IMG/VR virus record: IMGVR_UViG_3300037258_001185
Span: 1-64,000 of that record
DNA length: 64,000 nt
Strand: one strand, 5' to 3'
Origin: a virus
Both the position numbers and the translations under genes were made by a program. The notes beneath the pieces were generated by a model. The model made no database searches. It was given only the letters and a program-made list of their open reading frames with translations, and was not told the origin of the DNA. Positions 2,160-50,922 of this stretch are shown here, piece after piece. Position 1 is the stretch's first letter; every line of letters starts with the position of its first letter.

Positions 2160-2989
2160 TTCGAGCTCCTTCGCGCTTTCGGGAGATCAGGCGCCGCGGC
2201 CGGTTCGGGGATCGCCAATTCGCCGATCGCCTCGGCCACCCTGTCGTGCATCGCACGAAGCTGCTCGTGGAGTTGCCGAAGGCCGCCATACGAGCCAGCC
2301 ACCCCGGCCTTCATCACCACCTGGACGGCGTCAATCAGGGCGGCATCACGCCAGAAATGATCAGGCTGCTCGCCGATCGCTTCGACCAGTCCGCGCCAGT
2401 GCTGGGCCGCCAGCGTGTCACCCTCACGGCGGTTCTCGACGGCCTGGCGGACACGTTCCTCGAATTGCTTGTCCTGTACCTGCCGACGCGCCTGGAACAC
2501 GGCGTCGACCTCGTCCTGATCCAGCGGCCGGCCGGCGGCGCGCAGCATCGCCGCAAGGAACGGCCGGCCCACTGGCTCAGCCGGAGTCTTCTCCGCTCGC
2601 TTGGCGACGGCCGTTTTGCCTGCGCCATCGACCACGATCATGCCCCAAGCAGGGGGCAACTCCCCGACCGGCACGACGCCGGCCGGGGCCGCGATCCAGA
2701 AATAGTCGCAGAACCGGGCAATCTGTTCGGCCTTGGACGGGTTCGCCTTCTCGCGGCGCCAGTCGTAGAGGTTGACCTTGATCTCGATGCCGTGCAGCGA
2801 CAGGCCGCGGCTCGGCCATAAATCCATAGCCACAGCATCGAGGTGACGGTGCGCCTGTGTTCCCGTCGAGTGCGCCACCTCGAAGGCGATGGCGCACTCC
2901 GGCGCCGGGAAATGCCGGCGCAGCGCGGCCCGGACGTCGGGCGCCTTCATCACCTTCGGCGCGGCCGGCCGTTCGAGCAGGTCGCTCAT
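2156..2989 (-). CDS. MmcB-like PD-(D/E)XK nuclease
   Basis: LDAVAM...GIEIKV..DWRRE...K......CDYFWIAAP. Confidence 0.7.
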   Translation of the reverse strand: MSDLLERPAAPKVMKAPDVRAALRRHFPAPECAIAFEVAHSTGTQAHRHLDAVAMDLWPSRGLSLHGIEIKVNLYDWRREKANPSKAEQIARFCDYFWIAAPAGVVPVGELPPAWGMIVVDGAGKTAVAKRAEKTPAEPVGRPFLAAMLRAAGRPLDQDEVDAVFQARRQVQDKQFEERVRQAVENRREGDTLAAQHWRGLVEAIGEQPDHFWRDAALIDAVQVVMKAGVAGSYGGLRQLHEQLRAMHDRVAEAIGELAIPEPAAAPDLPKARRSSK

Positions 2990-3375
2990 GCGGCGATCCG
3001 TTCAGGATAAAGGAGACCCTGCAGGTGCGCGGGCAGCCGCTCGAACGACTCGCGCATCTTGCCGTCCGGCGACCGGCTGACGAGCCCCGCAGCGATGCGC
3101 CACAGGTCGATGTGGTATTTGCGGCCGAAGGTCAGGACGCCGCGGTGCTGCTCGACATGATGATCGCGGCAGAGCGGAATGCCATACGCGGCGTGCGGCT
3201 TGTCGCTCTTGCCCGAATTGGCCGCCGTCCGCTGATGGGCGAACTCGACCGGCCCGCACCAGCATCCCGGAACGCAACAGCCCTGACTGCGCACGAACGC
3301 CTCGTGCACCGGGAACACCGTCCGCTCGATCTCGCGGACGCCCATGCGCTGCCGCTTTGGCGTCGCGCGCGGCAT
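2986..3375 (-). CDS. DUF968-like putative HNH-type nuclease
   Basis: FVRSQGCCV, AH, K.....IPLCRDHH.EQH; start inferred at ATG 3375. Confidence 0.7.
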   Translation of the reverse strand: MPRATPKRQRMGVREIERTVFPVHEAFVRSQGCCVPGCWCGPVEFAHQRTAANSGKSDKPHAAYGIPLCRDHHVEQHRGVLTFGRKYHIDLWRIAAGLVSRSPDGKMRESFERLPAHLQGLLYPERIAA

Positions 3376-3920
3376 CACGAGATCCCCGCGGCGCGGGCGG
3401 CGCGCCAGTCGGCGGCGCAGATCCACCTGAACGGCTTCAGTCCGTAGGACAGGTAGAGCGGGTGCCCCGGCTGGCCGGCGGCCGTGAGCTTCAGCGCATA
3501 GAGGTCGTGCCCGAGGTCGGCCAGCAGGCCCACCACCTCTTGCCACCGCGGGCGCGCGTGGCCGTTGAGCAGGCCGTGGCTGCCCCAGCCGCACAGGACC
3601 ATCCCGGCGTCCGCGCACATGCGCACCAGGTAGCCGTCGGCGTCCGGGCCGAGCGGATCGTCGACGCGCAACAGCCCTGCCGGGTCGGTCGACCGCAGGG
3701 TGAAGATGTTGCCGACGCGGAGGCCGCCGAAGCCCATCTGCTCGGCGCGCATCCGACAGCGGTAAACCGTCGGGTCGTCCTGCACGGCGTCGGCGGTCGA
3801 CGGGTTGAGCAGCACTACGACGAGCGGCGGCGCGTCCGACCAGCGCCGCCATAGCAGGCCGCGGTAGCGCCCGCAGGGCGAGAACTCGGCGCCGGAGTCG
3901 AGAAACAGGTCCACGCTCAT
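3375..3920 (-). CDS. DUF1643 family protein
   Basis: FSPCGRYR..L.RRW, LNPSTAD..DDPT, GWG, P.HPLY. Confidence 0.85.
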   Translation of the reverse strand: MSVDLFLDSGAEFSPCGRYRGLLWRRWSDAPPLVVVLLNPSTADAVQDDPTVYRCRMRAEQMGFGGLRVGNIFTLRSTDPAGLLRVDDPLGPDADGYLVRMCADAGMVLCGWGSHGLLNGHARPRWQEVVGLLADLGHDLYALKLTAAGQPGHPLYLSYGLKPFRWICAADWRAARAAGIS

Positions 3921-4660
3921 GCGCCAGCCTCGTCATCTGGCTCGTCAACCAGCGCCCTCGCTTCCGCGATGACGGCGCTGTCGCAGTCATCGACGAACAA
4001 CCCGGTTTTCACGCCGGCGCAGGAGGCGTGGGCCAGGATTTCCTCGCCATCGATGCACCCGGCGCTCACCCGCTCGTCACCGGGGCGCATGAACTCGCCA
4101 CAAAGTTCGCAGCGCTCGAACCATTCCCCGCGATTGGCTTGGTCGAGCGCAGCGAGGGTCGGCCGGATCACTTCGATGCGGATACGTGCGGCTTCACGCG
4201 CGGCCTTGGCGTTACGCCGCTGCTCGAAGCCACGATGCAACCAGATCGCCATCTGCAACCGGGCCGCGGCATCGCGCCGCCAGAACGCAACTTCCTCCGC
4301 TGCGGCGCGCGCCGCCGGCCGCTGAGAAATGTCGATCAGCAACTCACCCAACAGGGCGTCCAGACGGGACACCTCCGCTTCGGCGGCGCGCCGCCGCTCG
4401 ACCTCGCGGTTGTTGGCTTCGAGCAATACGGTAGTCCGTGCCGCCCATGACGGGCTTCCGGCGCCCTCGAAAACCGCTTCTTGCAGGCCGTCTGCGGCAA
4501 GCCAAAGCTGGCCGATCAGATGCGCGACGCCGGCACGGCCGGCCGCATGGGCGTCGAACGCCCCCAGGATTGTCGCCTTAGCGACCGCGATCGCGTCCTG
4601 CTCGTGTGAGCGTCTTTCGGGGCTGTGCGCAGCGGTATCCCGTGTCGGCGTATCGCTCAT
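3917..4660 (-). CDS. hypothetical protein (coiled coil, C-terminal CxxC)
   Basis: ATGA overlap with the upstream gene; LLEANNREVERRR. Confidence 0.6.
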   Translation of the reverse strand: MSDTPTRDTAAHSPERRSHEQDAIAVAKATILGAFDAHAAGRAGVAHLIGQLWLAADGLQEAVFEGAGSPSWAARTTVLLEANNREVERRRAAEAEVSRLDALLGELLIDISQRPAARAAAEEVAFWRRDAAARLQMAIWLHRGFEQRRNAKAAREAARIRIEVIRPTLAALDQANRGEWFERCELCGEFMRPGDERVSAGCIDGEEILAHASCAGVKTGLFVDDCDSAVIAEARALVDEPDDEAGA

Positions 4661-5715
4661 GCCGGGAACTCCGAATGCTCGCGTCCGTCGAGCAGATGGC
4701 CGGCGGCGCGCCTGCCGACGCGCGCGAAAATGCCGGGCCATTCGCAACTGCCGGCAGCAACGTCGCCAAGATCATCGGCGTGCCGCCACGCGCGATCGTC
4801 AAAATCAAGGTGGGCCGGAAACTGGTCTTCTGTCAGCCACTCGCCCATTTGTTTGAAGAAGAACGGGACGCCGGCTGCGGCACACTGGTCGCGTAGCGCG
4901 CGCGCCCAGGCCGGATGCATCGGCCGCGCGCCAGGGCCGCTTTCGCCGCCGGCGATGACCCAATCGAGGCTGGGCCGGCGCCGCCAGAACCAATCATAGG
5001 CGCCATCAATGAGGGCGCAGCCTGGTATCTCGTCGAGTCGCATCCGACGCCAGAACGATCCATCAAGATCGAATGGCCCGAGCAGCGGCTCGACTGAGAG
5101 GCCGTGGACCGGCAACGGGACGGCAAGCAGTTCGGGGATGCGCTCATCGGCGCGGCGCTGATCTTCGACGCTGGTCATCGCCCAGCAGCGCGCGAAGACG
5201 GCGTCGAAATCCGCCACAACCGGTTCGAAATTCGGCCTGCCGAGGATCGGATGGTCGAACATCAGCCACCGGCCGCTGTCGCGCAGCTCGGTGAAATAGT
5301 CCCGCATGACGGCGGGCCGCTTGGTCAGGAATTGCCCGATATGCGGCGAGTAGATGATCGCCGCGACGGCGCGGTCGATGTCCGCCCGCGGCCGGTCTTC
5401 ATGGAACAGGTCCGCCATGTCGCCGACAAAGATCATCGACGGCTTGCCGGGACCGAGCCGTGGGTTCTTGGCGCCACGCCAGCGGACCGGCCAGGACCAG
5501 ACATCGGCGTCATCGGCGGCGCGGGTGAGGTGACCGTTGAAGACCGGGCCGGCGTTGGACGGCGTCGTCGTGCCCGCGTAGAGCGGCAGATGCTTCAGCC
5601 GCCGGCCGGCAAGCCCTTGCGCGTAGCAGTTCGTGCAGCCGGGTGACTTGATCGAGCAACCACCGACAGGGTTCCAGGTCGCGTCCGTCCACTCGATCGC
5701 GGTGATGGCGCCCAT
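4657..5715 (-). CDS. phage Gp37/Gp68 (DUF5131) family protein
   Basis: IEWTDATWNPVGGC...SPGC.NCYA, MADLFHE, LTKRP, DWVIAGGESG, VPFFFKQ.G. Confidence 0.9.
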   Translation of the reverse strand: MGAITAIEWTDATWNPVGGCSIKSPGCTNCYAQGLAGRRLKHLPLYAGTTTPSNAGPVFNGHLTRAADDADVWSWPVRWRGAKNPRLGPGKPSMIFVGDMADLFHEDRPRADIDRAVAAIIYSPHIGQFLTKRPAVMRDYFTELRDSGRWLMFDHPILGRPNFEPVVADFDAVFARCWAMTSVEDQRRADERIPELLAVPLPVHGLSVEPLLGPFDLDGSFWRRMRLDEIPGCALIDGAYDWFWRRRPSLDWVIAGGESGPGARPMHPAWARALRDQCAAAGVPFFFKQMGEWLTEDQFPAHLDFDDRAWRHADDLGDVAAGSCEWPGIFARVGRRAAGHLLDGREHSEFPA

Positions 5716-6002
5716 CAGCATTTCCTCCACACGCGGCATTGACGCCCCGTCGGCGCGGCGGCCGTCTGTCCTGTCGGGACTGCCTTGCCGTCGGCCTTCA
5801 ACTCCGGCAGCCGCCGCGCGACCTGGACGTGGTTGAGGCCGGTCCGGCTGGCGATCTGGTAGATGGTCGCCTCGCCGTCGGCCAGGGCGCCGAGGATCGC
5901 CCCGCAATGGGCCTCGGCACTGCTGAGCTGAGCCGCAGCCGCGTGCGACGTCTCAGGATCGGAGCGCCGCGCGCGATGCTCGGCTGCTGAATACAGGTCC
6001 AC
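5715..6002 (-). CDS. winged helix-turn-helix protein
   Basis: ARRSDPETSH.AA, then TIYQIASRTGLNHVQVARRLPEL; start uncertain. Confidence 0.7.
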   Translation of the reverse strand: MDLYSAAEHRARRSDPETSHAAAAQLSSAEAHCGAILGALADGEATIYQIASRTGLNHVQVARRLPELKADGKAVPTGQTAAAPTGRQCRVWRKC

Positions 6003-6004
6003 CT

Positions 6005-6556
6005 TCAGGCAGCTTTCGCTTCCGCGGCGGCCGGCGTGCACTGTTCATAGGGGATGAGTACGCCGCCGTTCTGGTCGGGGTTTCGGCGCAGGTATTCGTC
6101 CGTCTGCACGACATAGGACGCTATGGCGCCGGCGATGCTGGTGATCGGCCCGCTACCGGCCGGCGTGTCGACGACCTCGCCGATCGTCAGATGCGGCCTG
6201 ACACCGTTGGCTTCCGCCCACAACTTGACGAATGCCCTCTCGGCGCCGAGCAGCGTGCTTGGCAGTCCGGCGAGGATGTCGACGAGGTGCTCGTCGGGCT
6301 GCCAGCGGTGGTCCCGCTCCAGCTTCCGGCACGCGCGATAGCCGTCCGTCTCGCCGACGACGCTCAGGAGATCCGCGACGATCTGATCGCGCGGCGTGCC
6401 GCCATATTCATCGCCGAGCCATTCGGCCACCTCAGGCAGGATTGCCGCGACCGCGGCGACCCGCACGCGGTCGTCGCGGTCGGTCGGCCGCGGCGGCGGG
6501 TTCGGCTGCTCGGGGAAGGCGAGCGGCAATAGGGCATCGGTGCGCTGATTTTCCAT
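6005..6556 (-). CDS. hypothetical protein
   Basis: GGAG RBS before the ATG; in operon. Confidence 0.65.
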   Translation of the reverse strand: MENQRTDALLPLAFPEQPNPPPRPTDRDDRVRVAAVAAILPEVAEWLGDEYGGTPRDQIVADLLSVVGETDGYRACRKLERDHRWQPDEHLVDILAGLPSTLLGAERAFVKLWAEANGVRPHLTIGEVVDTPAGSGPITSIAGAIASYVVQTDEYLRRNPDQNGGVLIPYEQCTPAAAEAKAA

Positions 6557-6559
6557 GTG

Positions 6560-7147
6560 CTACTCCAATTGCGGCGCCACGCGCCGCATGTTCGGGCCGT
6601 CCGACGGGCCGCTGAAATGGACGGTCACCGATGCGGCCTCACGGGCCGCGCGCATTGCGCGAAGGCGCGCCGTAACCCCGTCTGGACCCTCAGGGCCATA
6701 GCGCCCTGTGCTATCGAGCAGCACGGCCCGCGGGTTGCGCCCGAGGCGCAGCCCGAACATCAGCGTGTCCCACGCCTCGCGGTGGTCGGAGCGAAAGAAC
6801 GGAAGGGGCGCGGCCCATATCGCAAAATCGTGCTGCGGACCGCGCAGCGCGGCGGGATCGTCGACGCTATAGATCTCGGAGACGGCGCCGGTCGGCCAAG
6901 AAAGGCGCGCGCGCGGCCAGTCCACCGCGGGGAGCGAAGGTGAGAAATGCCACATGAAGGCCAGATCGCCCGTCACACGATCAGCGGTGGTCACCAGGGC
7001 GATGCGTTTGCGCTCGTCGGCGATGGCCGCAAGCATGAGATCGTGAAGCGCAAGCCGACGCGGGCGCGCGACCCGCACAATGTCGATCTGGAGGCCGACA
7101 TTGTTCTCGGCGAGCCAAGAGGCGACACGGGAGGTTGGATCGGTCAT
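6560..7147 (-). CDS. degenerate paralog of the terminase large subunit ATPase domain (Walker A/B lost)
   Basis: shares KRIALV, RL.WP.GA, LRGPQHDFA and EAWD.LMFGLRLGR.PR with TerL at 49486-50922. Confidence 0.8.
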   Translation of the reverse strand: MTDPTSRVASWLAENNVGLQIDIVRVARPRRLALHDLMLAAIADERKRIALVTTADRVTGDLAFMWHFSPSLPAVDWPRARLSWPTGAVSEIYSVDDPAALRGPQHDFAIWAAPLPFFRSDHREAWDTLMFGLRLGRNPRAVLLDSTGRYGPEGPDGVTARLRAMRAAREAASVTVHFSGPSDGPNMRRVAPQLE

Positions 7148-8454
7148 CCGGCGTCTCCTTGCGGATTGCGATGATCCCCGAGAGCGGCGGCAGGATTACG
7201 ATGGCCTTGCGGCACTCCGGGGCTGGCCGCCACGCTCGGGGATGGGGTCAGAAGGGCATCGGCACCGGTACAATGGCCTTGCGGCAGGAACTCCTTGGCC
7301 TTTGCTCTCCTGGTGGGCTTGGCGCGGACGCCGGTCATCACGGACATGGCGGTGTCCGCGCCGATCAGGGCCGAAGCGGAGTCGGCATAGGCAGTCGGGC
7401 CTTTCGGCAACCTTCGGACGGCGTTCTCCGCTTCGGTTTGGTTCGGGGCGCCGGCGGCAACGGTCGCATGGCCTTGCGGCATCAACCAATCGGCCTCCGG
7501 CGCCCCGATCTCTTGTGCCGCGACCTCGGCGTGCCAGACACGCCACAGGTCGCGCAATACGCGCTTGGCCATGAGGCGCCGGGCGGCCATGTCGGCGTGC
7601 GCCGGCGTCCATTTGTCGGGGTTCTTCTTGCCGCCGAGCTCGGCCGGCAGGTCCGCCGTGGCGGCGACGCGCAGCGTGTACCGCGCCTTCGCCCGCCCAT
7701 AGACCTCGCCATAGGGGCCGATCGCGTGCGCCTCGGCAACAATGCCGAACGGCTCGGCGAGTTCCCTCAACTCCTCTATCTTCTTGACTTGCTTCAGGTC
7801 GATGTCGCGGCGCTGGATTTCCGCAGCGGCGGCCGGGTCATCCTCCAGCGCCTTACGGTAAGCGCCGACCTCACTGCACCATTGCTGCCTCAGCATGGCA
7901 TCATAGATGCCGACATAGATGGCGGAACGCCGCCACTTGTGCATCTGGCGTACCGCCGTCTCGTTCTCTCCCGCGCCCGCGAACCCCAGACCGAGCCGCT
8001 TCCACATTTTCGAATGGGAGGGGAAATCGGACAGACCCCGGTCCTGCGCGCCGTGGCAATGCGCCACGATCACGGCAAACGTCAGATCGCCAAACCCATT
8101 GACGGACCTGACCCAGGCGTAGGCCGGCAACTGCGGCGCCAGCCGCTCCATTTGCCGCTCGATCTTTTTCCTCTCCTTTTCGAACAGGGCGACCGCCACC
8201 AATGCGGCCATGACCGCGCCGCGCCAGGCCCCGGCCGTGTTCTCGGCGCCCTCGGCATCTGCCTTGACCGCAGCGACGATCTGACGGGCGCGTGCCGCGA
8301 TCTTCTCGCTTTCGGCTTTCGACAGGTCGCTGCGCCACCCGAGGGCGCTGCGAAGTTGTCCTCCCATGCGATTTGAAATCGCCGTCGTTTGACTGACGAG
8401 GCCGGCCCTGACCCGATTGAGTCCGGCCAAGGCCTGCACCGCGTCGCTCAGCAT
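7144..8454 (-). CDS. IS110-related Nop-domain RNA-binding protein, TasA-like (no RuvC or HNH domain)
   Basis: coiled coil, then WVRSVNGFG...AVIVA...LSDFPSHSKMWKRLGL, Y..VY...KARY and HA...ARR.MAKR.LRDLWRVW; no N-terminal DEDD domain; guide-like units inside and upstream. Confidence 0.75.
   Translation of the reverse strand: MLSDAVQALAGLNRVRAGLVSQTTAISNRMGGQLRSALGWRSDLSKAESEKIAARARQIVAAVKADAEGAENTAGAWRGAVMAALVAVALFEKERKKIERQMERLAPQLPAYAWVRSVNGFGDLTFAVIVAHCHGAQDRGLSDFPSHSKMWKRLGLGFAGAGENETAVRQMHKWRRSAIYVGIYDAMLRQQWCSEVGAYRKALEDDPAAAAEIQRRDIDLKQVKKIEELRELAEPFGIVAEAHAIGPYGEVYGRAKARYTLRVAATADLPAELGGKKNPDKWTPAHADMAARRLMAKRVLRDLWRVWHAEVAAQEIGAPEADWLMPQGHATVAAGAPNQTEAENAVRRLPKGPTAYADSASALIGADTAMSVMTGVRAKPTRRAKAKEFLPQGHCTGADALLTPSPSVAASPGVPQGHRNPAAALGDHRNPQGDAG
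7174..7508 (-). ncRNA. TIGR-like stem-loop guide array 1 (4 dual-spacer units and 1 single-spacer unit)
   Basis: units at 7174-7243, 7249-7312, 7371-7436 and 7443-7508, each stem + CCN-9nt-TGCC(GNRA)GGCCN-9nt-TG + stem; half unit at 7321-7362. Confidence 0.8.
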
Positions 8455-49124: not shown

Positions 49125-49592
49125 ATGACCAAGAGACACGTACCGAGCGACCGGACGCGGGCGACGGTCGAGGCGCTTGCCGCCTACGGCATCCCCGAGG
49201 AACACATCGCGGCTGACATCGGCGTCTCGCCGCCGACGCTGCGCAAGCACTACCGCGCCGAACTCGATACCGCCGCGACCCGCGCCAACGCCAAGGTCGG
49301 CGAGTTTCTGTTCTCGATGGCCACCGGCCGCAACGGGCCGCTTGCTCGCGACAAGGATGGCTCGGTCATCCGCGACGCCAACGGCGTTCCAATCCGGGAG
49401 GCCGATTACCGCGCCTCGACGACAGCAGCGATCTTCTGGGCGAAGACTCGGATGCTTTGGCGCGAGGTCTCCGGTGTAAATCTGAGTGTCGAAGATGATT
49501 CGTCCGGCGCGCGAGAACTGCTCACTCGCGCAATCGATCGCCTCGCTCCCGCCGGAGGAGAGGAGACGGCTACTACGGCGCCTGAAGCCTGA
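49125..49592 (+). CDS. terminase small subunit
   Basis: V..LA.YG.P...IA..IGVS..TLRKHY..EL, AAIFW.K.R..W.E; precedes TerL. Confidence 0.8.
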   Translation: MTKRHVPSDRTRATVEALAAYGIPEEHIAADIGVSPPTLRKHYRAELDTAATRANAKVGEFLFSMATGRNGPLARDKDGSVIRDANGVPIREADYRASTTAAIFWAKTRMLWREVSGVNLSVEDDSSGARELLTRAIDRLAPAGGEETATTAPEA

Positions 49593-50922
49593 AGCCGTCA
49601 AGGAACTGCTCTACGATTGGAAGTTCTGGGCGCGGCCCAACCAGCTCGCGCCGCCGGGCGACTGGAGAACCTGGCTGGTGCTCGCGGGGCGCGGCTTCGG
49701 CAAGACCCGCACAGGCGCCGAGTTGGTCCGCGATCGCGTGGCGGCCGGCTATAAGCGCATCGCGCTCGTCGGCGCGACGGCGGCCGACACCCGCGACGTC
49801 ATGGTCGAGGGCGAGAGCGGTATCCTGGCGATTTCTCCGGCCAACAACCGGCCGCGCTACGTTTCAACGGTACGGCGCCTGATGTGGCCCAACGGGGCAA
49901 TCGCCACAACCTATTCGGCAGAAGAGCCGGAGCGCCTTCGCGGTCCGCAGCACGATTTCGCCTGGTGCGACGAGATTGCCGCGTGGCGATATCCGGAAGC
50001 GTGGGACATGCTGATGTTCGGGCTGCGCCTCGGGCGCGACCCGCGGTCCGTCGTGACGACAACGCCGAAGCCGATCAAGCTGGTGCGGGATCTGCTGGCC
50101 GACCCGACGACAAAAATCACTCGCGGTTCGACCTACGACAACCGCGGCAACCTGGCGCCGGCGTTCTTCACCCAGATCATCCGCAAATACGAAGGCACGC
50201 GCCTCGGGCGACAGGAAATCGAGGCCGAGTTGCTCGCCGACACGCCGGGCGCGCTGTGGACCATGAAGCGGATCGATGAGTTGCGCGTCAATCGTGGCGC
50301 CTATCCCGAGCTCACGCGGATCGTCGTCGCGATCGACCCGGCCGTTTCAACCGGCGAGGATTCGGACGAAACGGGCATCGTGGTGGCCGGCAAGAGCGCC
50401 GCCGGCCACGGCTATGTGCTGCATGACGGCTCCGGTCGGATGATGCCGACCGAGTGGGCGCGCGCGGCAATCAAGGCCTATCGGGACCATCACGCCGACC
50501 GTGTTGTCGCGGAGGTCAATCAAGGCGGCGATATGGTCGAGACGACCGTGCGCATGGTCGACCCCAATGTTTCCTATACCGCCGTCCACGCCAGCCGGGG
50601 AAAGGTCGTCCGGGCCGAGCCGGTCGCGGCGCTCTACGAGCAGGGCAGAATCCATCACGTCGGCGCGTTCCCGCAACTCGAAGATCAGATGTGCGCGTTC
50701 ACCAGCGATTTCGACAGGAAATCGTCGGGGTCGCCGGATCGCGTTGACGCGCTGGTCTGGGCATTCACCGAATTGCTGGTCGACCAGGCGGCGGGCGCTG
50801 GCGTCGCTGGCTTTACCCGCCGCCTTGCCGACGAGACCCGGGCTGCCGCCCAGAAACCGCTAGCGACAAAGGTTATTCCGGCCCGCGGCTCGAAGGAATG
50901 GCAAGAGCTGTACGGGGAGTGA
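49486..50922 (+). CDS. terminase large subunit
   Basis: Walker A AGRGFGKT, Walker B WCDE, TTTP, nuclease IDPA...DETGI and SPDRVDA; exact start uncertain. Confidence 0.95.
   Translation: MSKMIRPARENCSLAQSIASLPPEERRRLLRRLKPEAVKELLYDWKFWARPNQLAPPGDWRTWLVLAGRGFGKTRTGAELVRDRVAAGYKRIALVGATAADTRDVMVEGESGILAISPANNRPRYVSTVRRLMWPNGAIATTYSAEEPERLRGPQHDFAWCDEIAAWRYPEAWDMLMFGLRLGRDPRSVVTTTPKPIKLVRDLLADPTTKITRGSTYDNRGNLAPAFFTQIIRKYEGTRLGRQEIEAELLADTPGALWTMKRIDELRVNRGAYPELTRIVVAIDPAVSTGEDSDETGIVVAGKSAAGHGYVLHDGSGRMMPTEWARAAIKAYRDHHADRVVAEVNQGGDMVETTVRMVDPNVSYTAVHASRGKVVRAEPVAALYEQGRIHHVGAFPQLEDQMCAFTSDFDRKSSGSPDRVDALVWAFTELLVDQAAGAGVAGFTRRLADETRAAAQKPLATKVIPARGSKEWQELYGE

What the first reader, a model, noticed from the sequence alone, without database searches (positions are those of the whole stretch)
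6560..7147. Apparently inactive copy of the terminase ATPase domain coupled to the Tas-like gene
Seen: this 195-aa early gene aligns with the phage's own TerL (RKRIALV/YKRIALV, RLSWPTGA/RLMWPNGA, LRGPQHDFA identical, EAWDTLMFGLRLGRNPR/EAWDMLMFGLRLGRDPR). Walker A (GRGFGKT) is absent, Walker B WCDE is replaced by IWAA, and there is no nuclease domain. It overlaps the Nop gene stop by ATGA. Known: Avs1/Avs2/Avs3 STAND receptors sense terminase large subunits. Inference: an early decoy against terminase-sensing immunity, a dominant-negative packaging inhibitor, or a partner of the RNA-guided complex.
Basis: partly seen in the sequence, partly recalled or inferred. Interest (0 to 1): 0.78.

Follow-up and report, generated by a model that had tools for sequence, protein, structure and literature searches.

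The report
Dead terminase-ATPase copy in soil prophage
A soil prophage carries, far from its real DNA-packaging enzyme, an intact small gene that is a copy of that enzyme's motor domain with every ATP-handling residue lost; one related phage keeps it too, so it probably acts by binding something, but its partner is unknown.

Summary
The minus-strand ORF 6560-7147 (195 aa) is homologous to the ATPase domain of the phage's own TerL (49486-50922): 45% identity over 119 residues, E 5e-19. The Q-motif, Walker A, Walker B, C-motif, a conserved arginine loop and the nuclease domain are all missing.

It is not a decaying pseudogene. One true relative exists (P0064, 209 aa, soil-type metagenome contig L003). 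It sits in the same place in a related phage and shares the same derived replacements, D[FL]AIWA[AV]P and [LV]LD. The pair gives dN/dS of about 0.43 (bootstrap 0.22-0.69) and forms one branch in the tree (100/97). The model has a TerL ATPase fold (Z 11.2 to D6E TerL). Both keep the two arginine positions that act in trans in other TerLs.

The link to the Tas-like gene is adjacency only: L003 has no Tas gene and no array.

The function is untested. My reading is a non-catalytic TerL mimic. Whether it acts as an immune decoy or interferes with packaging is open.

The family is tiny (2 members). Earlier notes of this scan report dead TerL-ATPase paralogues in other phage lineages.

The parts
6560..7147 (-). 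Gene for the 195-aa dead TerL-ATPase-domain paralogue (P0001), stop codon included
   Evidence: ORF list and translation. Homology to TerL E 5e-19. Coding GC pattern 0.71/0.54/0.79. AF2 model and fold matches.
6719..7042 (-). Core that aligns to TerL residues 79-190 (P0001 aa 36-143): beta2 through the strand before the C-motif
   Evidence: BLAST alignments. AF2 pLDDT block means are 76-94 over aa 31-140, except 69 for aa 61-70.
6806..6823 (-). Codons for A-I-W-A-A-P (aa 109-114), replacing the Walker B strand A-W-C-D-E of TerL. Catalytic D162/E163 become A/P here and V/P in P0064.
   Evidence: Column table. Pair alignment.
6842..6844 (-). Codon of R102 (in LRGPQHD), kept in both family members. 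It aligns with the arginine before the Walker B strand of T4 gp17 and lies at the alpha2-beta3 position of the P74-26 trans-arginine R139.
   Evidence: Passages of PMC5727402. The mapping to R139 is inferred, not shown.
6746..6748 (-). Codon of R134 (R-L-G), invariant in all 32 rows of alignment A2. It lies between alpha3 and beta4, where D6E TerL has its trans-arginine R158.
   Evidence: Passages of PMC5727402. The positional equivalence is inferred.
6713..6721 (-). Codons L-L-D (aa 143-145) at the TerL C-motif strand: TerL T191/T192 align to L144/D145, and T193 aligns to P152 after a 6-residue insertion. P0064 has V-L-D and P.
7155..7160 (-). Shine-Dalgarno-like AAGGAG, 7 nt upstream of the ATG
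   Evidence: Read from the sequence.
6005..6556 (-). Downstream 183-aa gene (P0245), 3 nt after the stop. It is the only neighbour that also follows the family member in L003 (53% identity).
   Evidence: The family has at least 33 members without a TerL-like neighbour in the 3 loci examined.
7144..8454 (-). Upstream Tas-like (Nop-domain) ORF. Its tail (about 7144-7530) contains four TGCCGNRAGGC units at 7204, 7276, 7399 and 7471.
   Evidence: NF052498 E 8e-20, 71.7 bits (< cut-off 100). Motif scan. GC by codon position.
49486..50922 (+). The phage's real TerL (478 aa) with intact GRGFGKT, WCDE, TTTP and nuclease domain. It is the source family of the paralogue.

Best explanation
SHOWN: 6560-7147 (-) is a real gene kept by selection. 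It encodes a pseudo-enzyme: a stand-alone copy of the TerL ATPase domain (roughly TerL residues 55-215). The fold is kept, but every element that binds or hydrolyses ATP in cis is lost: the Q-motif, the Walker A P-loop, Walker B D-E and the C-motif. The R103 loop and the whole nuclease domain are also lost. It arose once, before this prophage and the phage on contig L003 diverged, and both have kept it in the same slot since.

INFERRED: It cannot power packaging or cut DNA, so it must work by binding. The TerL-conserved residues that both members keep include the LRG...D and RLG arginines. In other TerLs these positions reach in trans into a neighbour's ATP site. An arginine just upstream of the Walker B aspartate is also contacted by EcAvs2 in PhiV-1 terminase. 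I therefore read the protein as a TerL mimic, made from the leftward (early) operon before TerL itself, that competes with TerL for a TerL-recognising partner. My sub-odds for the partner are: a host sensor of TerL (decoy or inhibitor) about 0.25; the packaging motor of this or a competing phage (non-hydrolysing cap or regulator) about 0.2; something else about 0.1. The stated confidence is for 'functional, non-catalytic TerL mimic acting by binding', not for any one partner.
For: Homology and dead motifs:
- Searches show the homology.
- of 83 TerL columns conserved at >=75%, P0001 keeps 37, P0064 keeps 29 and both keep 23.
- Lost in both: G68 R69 G70 K73 T74 (G72 is N in P0001 but G in P0064), R50/Q53, R103, E108, D162, E163, T191-193.
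- Kept in both: R152, G153, Q155, W160, W173, D174, R181, G183, P186.

Shared derived states:
- D[FL]AIWA[AV]P, HREAWD, [LV]LD and the N-terminal MTDP occur in P0001 and P0064.
- The other 16 of the 17 hit sequences I read keep D-E at Walker B.

Single origin:
- P0001 and P0064 sit on one branch, 100/97.

Synteny with L003:
- RecT-like 82%, P0245 53%, DUF1643/HNH 52%, w643 49%.

Selection:
- NG86 dN 0.72, dS 1.63.
- Bootstrap omega 0.43 (0.22-0.69), with 0 of 292 replicates >= 1.
- DNA-level indels are 9, 24, 9, 36 and 42 nt, plus a compensating 2+4.
- A random frame of this composition stays open for 195 codons with p = 0.009.

Fold:
- AF2 block means are 69-94 over aa 31-140.
- The top 16 VIA-align rows are all TerL ATPase domains; D6E gives Z 11.2, rmsd 4.2, 142 aligned.
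- The Atlas model aligns to Terminase_6N clusters at TM 0.64-0.70 over aa 1-184.

Translation signals:
- Both genes have their own SD.

Precedent in print (PMC13601566, sections 6, 8, 9, 10 read):
- T4 vs.8, Ksap1 and Ksap2 resemble the terminase ATPase, and their function is unknown. The authors suggest they may be anti-defence proteins.
- EcAvs2 makes salt bridges to terminase Arg154, 7 residues before the Walker B D161.
Against: - Only two family members exist, so selection rests on one saturated pairwise comparison. A protein-guided alignment lowers dN.
- Omega of 0.43-0.54 is higher than for P0245 (0.31) and RecT (~0.2). The terminal branches are long (0.72 and 2.18, against a median of 0.53), which fits relaxed constraint as well as an arms race.
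- There is no expression data.
- No partner is shown.
- The N-terminal 26 and C-terminal 48 residues are modelled poorly, and no P-loop strand is predicted, so stable folding alone is not certain.
- Avs2 and Avs3 read the ATP-bound active site, and binding normally activates them (PMC13601566). A mimic without an ATP site may not bind, or might trigger the sensor.
- P0064, but not P0001, starts with a Tat-signal-like peptide (PF10518, E 0.064, below cut-off). If real, it would put that homologue outside the cytoplasm and fit neither partner.
- Part of P0001's likeness to its own TerL (a 56-nt patch at 93% identity) could come from gene conversion and not from selection on that surface.
Confidence: 0.55

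Rival explanations
1. Packaging interference or regulation. The protein docks onto TerL subunits through the retained trans face (R102, R134) but offers no ATP site of its own. It would then cap or stall the pentameric motor, either to delay this phage's own terminase or to block a co-infecting relative or satellite.
For: The pattern is selective: cis ATP-site residues are lost and both candidate trans-arginine positions are kept in both members (positions per PMC5727402 passages; T4 gp17 alignment). The DNA-side R103 loop is deleted in both. Identity to this TerL family is 45-52%.
Against: An early-made inhibitor of the phage's own motor would be self-harming. Nothing shows specificity for foreign TerLs. 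The own TerL is not resolved as the sister, and synonymous similarity to it is within the range of 33 other GC-rich TerLs (0.52 against a median of 0.44 and a maximum of 0.62). The protein lacks the nuclease domain and C-terminal arm that some TerLs use to dock on the portal (PMC5727402 abstract). Fast evolution is not expected of a partner of a conserved motor.
Confidence: 0.2
2. Decaying or neutral remnant: a fragment of a terminase gene captured in the early region that is merely still open.
For: The family has only 2 members among about 15 billion proteins. There is no Pfam, PHROG or PADLOC hit. It is the most diverged of the shared genes (36-40% against 49-82%). GC-rich DNA gives many long chance ORFs.
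Against: Both copies are intact, with a conserved start (MTDP) and an SD. The derived motifs are identical in both. Indels keep the frame. Omega is below 1 in all 292 valid bootstrap replicates over all 174 aligned codons, and in 299 of 300 over the core. The chance of an open frame is 0.009 and 0.007 per copy. The core fold is modelled confidently.
Confidence: 0.1
3. Accessory subunit of the neighbouring TIGR-Tas-like RNA-guided system.
For: It lies directly 3' of the Tas-like ORF and its four stem-loop units, with an ATGA overlap. The Tas-like protein matches NF052498.
Against: Co-occurrence is 1 of 2 loci. L003 has the dead-TerL gene but no Tas homologue (tblastn E<=1e-2) and no excess of the loop motif (2 one-mismatch matches against 1.9 expected). 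The TIGR-Tas paper's main text never mentions terminase and names only a ParB-like partner (passages; its supplement was not seen). A preprint on TasA repression has 0 occurrences of 'terminase'.
Confidence: 0.03
4. A two-gene module with the downstream P0245-family protein, with a role unrelated to TerL mimicry (for example in the recombination or replication region). For P0064 it could be an exported or envelope role, if the Tat-like signal is real.
For: P0245 homologues follow the gene in 2 of 2 loci, 3 nt apart or overlapping. In L003 the pair follows a terminator-like hairpin and a 150-nt spacer, like a separate unit. P0064's only Pfam match is TAT_signal.
Against: The two loci are related by descent, so the synteny is not independent evidence. 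The P0245 family (>=33 members) has other upstream genes in the 3 viral loci examined, and the A1 profile finds nothing in those 3 whole records. The Tat hit is below the cut-off and the signal is absent from P0001.
Confidence: 0.12

Closest known systems
Large terminase subunit (TerL) ATPase domain of the Terminase_6 / gp17-like class, here the phage's own TerL (49486-50922). Solved examples: D6E, Sf6 gp2, T4 gp17, P74-26.
   Same: Clear sequence homology (E 5e-19) and the same fold (Z 11.2 to D6E, about 7.1-7.7 to Sf6, T4 and P74-26). Many non-catalytic core residues and the two arginine positions are conserved.
   Different: There is no Q-motif, Walker A, Walker B D-E or C-motif. The R103 loop is deleted. 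There is no lid or nuclease domain. It is 195 aa instead of 478. It lies in the leftward early/recombination operon, 43 kb from the packaging genes. It gives no Pfam Terminase_6N hit even at E<=10.
T4 vs.8, and Ksap1 and Ksap2: small phage proteins that resemble the terminase ATPase and activate Avs2 (PMC13601566, PMC11564622)
   Same: They are stand-alone proteins that resemble the TerL ATPase, restricted to narrow phage taxa, encoded outside the packaging module, and of unknown function. The authors suggest they may be anti-defence proteins (discussion read).
   Different: vs.8 keeps Walker A and B (section 8), whereas this protein has lost both. Activation or inhibition of any Avs is untested here.
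Dead TerL-ATPase paralogues noted earlier in this scan in rumen phages, P1/D6-type phage-plasmids and jumbo phages. These are AI notes that I did not check.
   Same: The same theme: an intact, catalytically dead, nuclease-less copy of the TerL ATPase half beside a working TerL, of unknown function.
   Different: They are in other lineages and other TerL classes (PacB, gp17-type). Nothing links them by descent to this family. A sequence look-up of P0001 in the scan's index matched only this window. This family sits in a temperate soil phage next to a RecT/TIGR-Tas region.

Membership tests
TerL ATPase domain (active large terminase) | Sequence homology to TerL N-terminal domain | tested here: met
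   E 5e-19 to the own TerL. 979 library hits at E<=1e-3. The 58 other hits all carry PF03237, and the other 16 of the 17 hit sequences I read are TerL-like.
TerL ATPase domain (active large terminase) | Walker A P-loop (G-R-G-F-G-K-T in this class) | tested here: not met
   G68, R69, G70, G72, K73 and T74 have no counterpart in P0001. P0064 keeps only G72.
TerL ATPase domain (active large terminase) | Walker B aspartate and catalytic glutamate (D162, E163; invariant in 30 of 30 TerL rows) | tested here: not met
   They are A-P in P0001 and V-P in P0064.
TerL ATPase domain (active large terminase) | C-motif (T-T-T) and C-terminal RNaseH-like nuclease domain | tested here: not met
   T191, T192 and T193 align to L, D and P in both members. 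The protein ends at 195 aa. No TIGR01630 or Terminase_6C hit.
TerL ATPase domain (active large terminase) | TerL ATPase fold | tested here: met
   VIA-align rows 1-16 are all TerL. D6E gives Z 11.2, rmsd 4.2, 142 aligned. Foldseek's best hit is P74-26 TerL, E 2.3e-3, prob 1.0. The model's mean pLDDT is only 67.5.
Pseudogene / gene remnant | Frameshifts, stops, loss of start, omega near 1 | tested here: not met
   The ORF is intact in both loci, with a conserved ATG-MTDP and an SD. Indels keep the frame. Omega is 0.43 (0.22-0.69). Caveat: n = 2 and dS is saturated.
TIGR-Tas accessory gene | Conserved co-occurrence with a tas gene and array | tested here: not met
   1 of 2 loci. L003 lacks tas and the loop motif.
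Avs2-activating TerL-ATPase look-alikes (vs.8 / Ksap class) | Stand-alone TerL-ATPase-like fold encoded outside the packaging module | tested here: met
Avs2-activating TerL-ATPase look-alikes (vs.8 / Ksap class) | Binds or activates an Avs2-type sensor | not testable with these tools
   This needs co-expression toxicity or binding assays.
Anti-defence decoy of TerL sensors | Suppresses TerL-triggered Avs/Upx activity | not testable with these tools
   No PADLOC hit. There is no assay available and no known family of this kind to compare with.
Tat-exported protein (P0064 only) | Twin-arginine signal peptide | tested here: inconclusive
   PF10518 matches aa 5-24 at E 0.064 and 13.7 bits, against a cut-off of 22.7. 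The sequence has T-R-R-S-L-F, an Ala-rich stretch and A-P-A. It is absent from P0001.

The most novel reading that the evidence does not exclude
The protein is an anti-defence factor built from the immune target itself. It would be an early-expressed, ATP-blind mimic of TerL's sensor-facing surface that occupies Avs- or Upx-type TerL sensors without letting them assemble (or soaks them up before TerL appears). Similar dead TerL-ATPase copies noted in several unrelated phage lineages would then represent convergent evolution of the same counter-measure.
Probability: 0.15. Interest if true: 0.85.

Novelty: new variant of a known kind. Interest (0 to 1): 0.5.

Why it matters
TerL is the most conserved protein of tailed phages. 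It is read by at least four bacterial sensor families: Avs1-3 and Upx. Phage proteins that look like its ATPase domain (vs.8, Ksap1, Ksap2) are known only as unexplained Avs2 triggers.

This gene is a copy in which every catalytic residue has been removed, yet the fold and the trans-acting face are kept under selection. It is a natural separation-of-function allele. It could show what, besides catalysis, the TerL ATPase surface is used for: immune evasion, motor regulation or inter-phage conflict. The question is directly testable with a 195-aa protein.

Against that, this family is tiny, has no cultured host and has no functional evidence.

Tried and rejected
- **Complex prediction.** TerL 40-235 (27-row alignment) with the P0001/P0064 alignment plus ATP and Mg gave 'no answer', score 0.01 against a mark of 0.32. 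Controls were not run. This is no evidence either way.
- **RNA evidence.** One DNA run (soil metagenome, possibly the source sample) holds the stretch. No RNA holder is listed, and read laying was not used.
- **More family members.**
  - Viral contigs with P0064: none.
  - Genome contigs with the pair alignment: 42 pattern matches, 0 confirmed.
  - Metagenome contigs: 87 pattern matches, 1 confirmed, which is L003.
  - Word-indexed search with the pair profile: only the two members, followed by TerL fragments from 63 bits down.
  - tblastn against 50,697 phage records: 21 records, one place each, all annotated as terminase or DNA-packaging protein.
  - blastn of 5900-8500 against phages: no match.
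- **Context through the partner gene.** P0245 alone or as a pair in viral contigs: 0 confirmed. The 30-row alignment gave 3 loci (two of them identical) with no TerL-like neighbour. Genome contigs with the 30-row alignment: 0 of 23 confirmed.
- **Own TerL as recent donor.** Rejected globally. Identical codons among identical residues are 24 of 46 (0.52), against a median of 0.44 and a maximum of 0.62 in 33 GC-rich TerLs out of 58 usable loci of the 80 fetched. The tree does not place the own TerL as sister. A local 56-nt patch (52 of 57 nt, against at most 47 in 51 other TerLs; 29 of the 80 fetched loci were dropped because my regular expressions did not find both segments) hints at gene conversion but is marginal.
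- **Codon-position identity from a DNA-only alignment** (0.50/0.51/0.46) was too saturated to be useful.
- **YN00 failed** (math domain error) for 5 of 6 gene pairs. The 'DUF1643' row of that call is a poor global alignment and was not used.
- **Sequence search of PDB.** The own TerL gave 0 hits at E<=1. The profile found only T4 gp17 at E 0.0021.
- **Literature.**
  - No paper holds 'truncated large terminase'.
  - 'Terminase paralog', 'terminase-like ATPase', 'inactive terminase', 'degenerate terminase' and 'terminase pseudogene' gave 0 occurrences in the 3 papers listed of the 4 that held any term; the listed hits were for 'second terminase' and looked unrelated by title.
  - One search was spoiled by the term 'vs.8'.
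  - Only open-access PMC and bioRxiv were searched.
  - Supplements are closed, so the vs.8 alignment (Suppl. Figs 15-16 of PMC13601566) and fig. S14 of PMC12045711 were not seen.
  - Hilbert et al. 2015 on P74-26 R139 was not read. I rely on its description in PMC5727402 (passages).
Full report
**What is there.** The finding's coordinates hold an ORF on the minus strand (6560..7147, ATG, 195 aa). Its codon-position GC (0.71/0.54/0.79) is that of the neighbouring genes of a long leftward operon. The window is the first 64 kb of an 84,251-bp IMG/VR provirus record, estimated 90% complete. The one sequencing run that holds it is a soil metagenome.

The leftward operon runs in this order:
- a RecT-like gene (9211-10347);
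- an unknown ORF (8448-9251);
- a Tas-like Nop-domain ORF (7144-8454; NF052498 E 8e-20, 71.7 bits, below the cut-off of 100; IS110 model 4e-11);
- the ORF in question;
- a 183-aa gene (6005-6556);
- a DUF5131 gene;
- a DUF1643/HNH fusion and others.

The phage's real TerL is at 49486-50922 (+). It has 478 aa with GRGFGKT, WCDE, TTTP and a nuclease domain.

- The product matches TerL residues 79-190 with 53 of 119 identical, E 5e-19. The next best hit in the window has E 0.76.
- The ATGA overlap with the upstream ORF is also real. However, the last ~130 codons of that ORF run through four TGCCGNRAGGC stem-loop units (7204, 7276, 7399, 7471). Eight of the ten exact matches in the window lie on the minus strand between 7204 and 9272.
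- Those codons have a weaker coding signature than the Nop part.
- The dead-TerL gene has its own AAGGAG 7 nt before the ATG.
- So the gene sits directly 3' of a sub-array, and true translational coupling to Tas is doubtful.

**Is it a gene or a wreck?** An exhaustive HMMER search of 1.84 billion representatives gave 979 hits at E<=1e-3, but only the query itself below 1e-30. I read 17 of the hit sequences. Sixteen are ordinary, mostly truncated TerLs with D-E at Walker B, and with GRGFGKT where the N-terminus is present. One, P0064 (209 aa), is different.
- It begins MTDP like the query.
- It has D-L-A-I-W-A-V-P where the query has D-F-A-I-W-A-A-P and TerL has D-x-A-W-C-D-E.
- It has HREAWD.
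- It has V-L-D where the query has L-L-D; TerL's T-T-T aligns to L, D and P in both members.
- The pair is 36% identical over 151 columns, E 3e-22, or 40% by MAFFT.

Each member is a singleton cluster. A profile of the two finds nothing else that is not TerL: the two members score 405 and 342 bits, and the next hit scores 63.

P0064 lies on a 5.5-kb metagenome contig (L003) that is syntenic with the window. It has a RecT-like C-terminus (82%), then the dead-TerL gene, then a homologue of the 183-aa gene (53%), then DUF1643 and HNH (52%) and a homologue of 643-1269 (49%).

Evidence for a single origin and for selection:
- In a tree of the core, the two group on one branch (100/97) apart from 30 TerLs.
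- NG86 gives dN 0.72 and dS 1.63. Bootstrap omega is 0.43 (0.22-0.69), with none of 292 replicates >= 1. For the core alone omega is 0.54 (0.30-0.85).
- For comparison, omega is 0.31 for the downstream gene and about 0.2 for RecT.
- dS is saturated, which inflates omega. The protein-guided alignment deflates dN.
- In a DNA-only alignment the gaps are 9, 24, 9, 36 and 42 nt, plus a compensating 2+4.
- A random frame of this base composition stays open for 195 codons with p = 0.009.

I conclude that the gene is old, arose once, and has been kept. Its constraint is looser than that on its neighbours.

**Anatomy.** I used a 32-row alignment (P0001, P0064 and 30 TerLs). Of 83 TerL columns conserved at >=75%, P0001 keeps 37, P0064 keeps 29 and both keep 23.

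Lost in both:
- R50 and Q53 of the N-terminal adenine (Q) motif; the proteins start at about TerL residue 55;
- G68, R69, G70, K73 and T74 of Walker A (G72 is lost in P0001 only);
- R103, inside a loop that is deleted, and E108;
- D162 and E163 of Walker B;
- T191-T193 of the C-motif.

The lid and nuclease domains are absent.

Kept in both: R91, G109, P123, W134, G137, S144, P148, R152-G153-x-Q155, A159, W160, W173-D174, R181-L-G183 and P186.

On the two arginines:
- R152 (P0001 R102) aligns with the arginine just before the Walker B strand of T4 gp17 (profile-to-PDB alignment).
- It places the confirmed trans-arginine R158 of D6E between alpha3 and beta4, which is where R181 (P0001 R134) lies. 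R134 is invariant in all 32 rows.
- These equivalences are inferred from position. They are not shown.

On the fold:
- The AF2 model has mean pLDDT 67.5. Block means are 76-94 over aa 31-140, except 69 for aa 61-70. They fall below about 50 for aa 1-30 and 151-195.
- The model has the strand-helix order of the domain but no strand for the P-loop.
- Its best solved matches are all TerL ATPase domains: D6E Z 11.2 (rmsd 4.2, 142 aligned), Sf6 7.7, T4 7.5, P74-26 7.1. Foldseek's best hit has E 2.3e-3.
- The ESM Atlas's own model aligns to Terminase_6N clusters at TM 0.64-0.70 over residues 1-184.

**Is it tied to the Tas-like gene?** No, as far as two loci can tell.
- In L003 the slot between RecT and the dead-TerL gene holds two ORFs with no homologue in the whole 84-kb record.
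- That slot also holds a terminator-like hairpin and a 150-nt spacer.
- L003 has no Tas homologue and no excess of the loop motif.
- The Tas-plus-array block therefore looks like a cassette in a variable slot.

The only conserved neighbour is the downstream 183-aa gene. That family has at least 33 members. In the three viral records I could fetch, other genes lie upstream of it, and the pair profile finds no match anywhere in those records. The synteny is therefore by descent and is not evidence of partnership.

**How it most likely works.**
Shown: it cannot bind or hydrolyse ATP in the TerL manner, cannot cut DNA, and is kept by selection with the fold intact.

Inferred: it acts by binding, as a TerL look-alike. 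Two partner classes fit.

(a) Host TerL sensors.
- PMC13601566 (sections 6, 8, 9, 10 read) shows that the ATPase domain alone activates EcAvs2.
- EcAvs2 contacts the terminase-bound ATP through a bridging ATP, and makes salt bridges to Arg154, just upstream of the Walker B D161.
- Upx is modelled as binding unfolded core strands of the ATPase, and in most cases does not need the catalytic aspartates.
- T4 vs.8 (Walker motifs intact), Ksap1 and Ksap2 are terminase-ATPase look-alikes of unknown function that the authors suggest may be anti-defence proteins.
- In favour of this reading: a leftward-operon (presumably early) position, fast evolution and a patchy distribution suit a conflict gene.
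- Against: this protein has no ATP site, and binding normally triggers these sensors.

(b) The packaging motor.
- Loss of the cis site with retention of both trans-arginine positions is what a non-firing cap of a TerL ring would look like.
- Against: early self-inhibition seems costly, and no specificity for foreign TerLs is evident.

I put 0.55 on 'functional non-catalytic TerL mimic'. Within that, I put about 0.25 on the sensor reading, 0.2 on the motor reading and 0.1 on other partners.

Rivals: an unrelated module with the downstream gene, 0.12; a neutral remnant, 0.1; a Tas accessory, 0.03.

**An unexplained point.** P0064's N-terminus reads like a twin-arginine signal: T-R-R-S-L-F, an Ala-rich hydrophobic stretch, then A-P-A. 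Its only Pfam match is TAT_signal, E 0.064, below the cut-off. P0001 has a 14-residue deletion there.

**Relation to the phage's own TerL.** Overall synonymous similarity is unremarkable: 24 of 46 identical codons among identical residues, against a median of 0.44 and a maximum of 0.62 in 33 GC-rich TerLs. So the copy is old. One 56-nt patch (window 6723-6778 against 49996-50051) is 93% identical. It is closer to the own TerL (52 of 57 nt) than to any of 51 other TerLs (at most 47). This is a marginal hint of gene conversion.

**Novelty.**
- I found no paper describing catalytically dead TerL-ATPase paralogues under the phrases searched. Only open-access text was searched, and supplements were closed.
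- The nearest published things are vs.8, Ksap1 and Ksap2.
- Earlier notes of this same scan report dead TerL-ATPase copies in rumen phages, P1/D6-type phage-plasmids and jumbo phages. I did not check them. None shares sequence words with this protein.
- This is therefore a new, very small family and a new variant of a recurring but functionally unexplained kind.
- It is worth a bench test. Its interest is limited by the absence of any functional evidence and by having only two members.

Noticed in passing
L003 1608-1710 (N-terminus of P0064): The only homologue of the dead-TerL protein starts with a twin-arginine-signal-like peptide: T-R-R-S-L-F, an Ala-rich hydrophobic stretch, then A-P-A. 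Its only Pfam hit is TAT_signal, E 0.064, below the cut-off. P0001 has a 14-residue deletion at that place.
   Followed up: partly
window 7204-7481 and 8760-9272, minus strand: Eight exact TGCCGNRAGGC units cluster here, out of ten exact matches in the window. Four lie inside the last ~130 codons of the Tas-like ORF, whose coding signature is weaker there. The annotated ORF probably reads through a stem-loop guide array.
   Followed up: partly
window 7150-9290 versus L003 356-1600: The slot between the RecT-like gene and the dead-TerL gene is variable. The window has a Tas-like gene, arrays and an unknown ORF there. L003 has two unrelated ORFs, a terminator-like hairpin (about 1440-1460) and a 150-nt spacer.
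   Followed up: partly
window 6723-6778 (-) versus 49996-50051 (+): A 56-nt patch is 93% identical between the dead copy and the phage's own terL. It is closer than to any of 51 other TerL genes compared. This may be a short gene-conversion tract, but the statistics are marginal.
   Followed up: partly
window 6005-6556 (-): This 183-aa protein belongs to an unannotated phage family of at least 33 members, with a conserved N-terminal P-L-x-x-P-x-Q-P-N-P-P-P-R-P motif. The ESM Atlas shows several clusters of 55-153 members, mostly viral. Its function is unknown.
   Followed up: partly
window 2986-3990 (-) versus L003 3144-3755 and 3752-4144: What is one 334-aa ORF in the window is two overlapping ORFs in L003. 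The window ORF's C-terminal part matches HNH endonuclease PHROGs; the DUF1643 label for the N-terminal part is my reading of the sequence, from no call.
   Followed up: no
window 4657-5907 (-): A 416-aa DUF5131 protein (PF07505, E 8e-69) with a ~65-residue N-terminal extension lies two genes downstream in the same operon.
   Followed up: no
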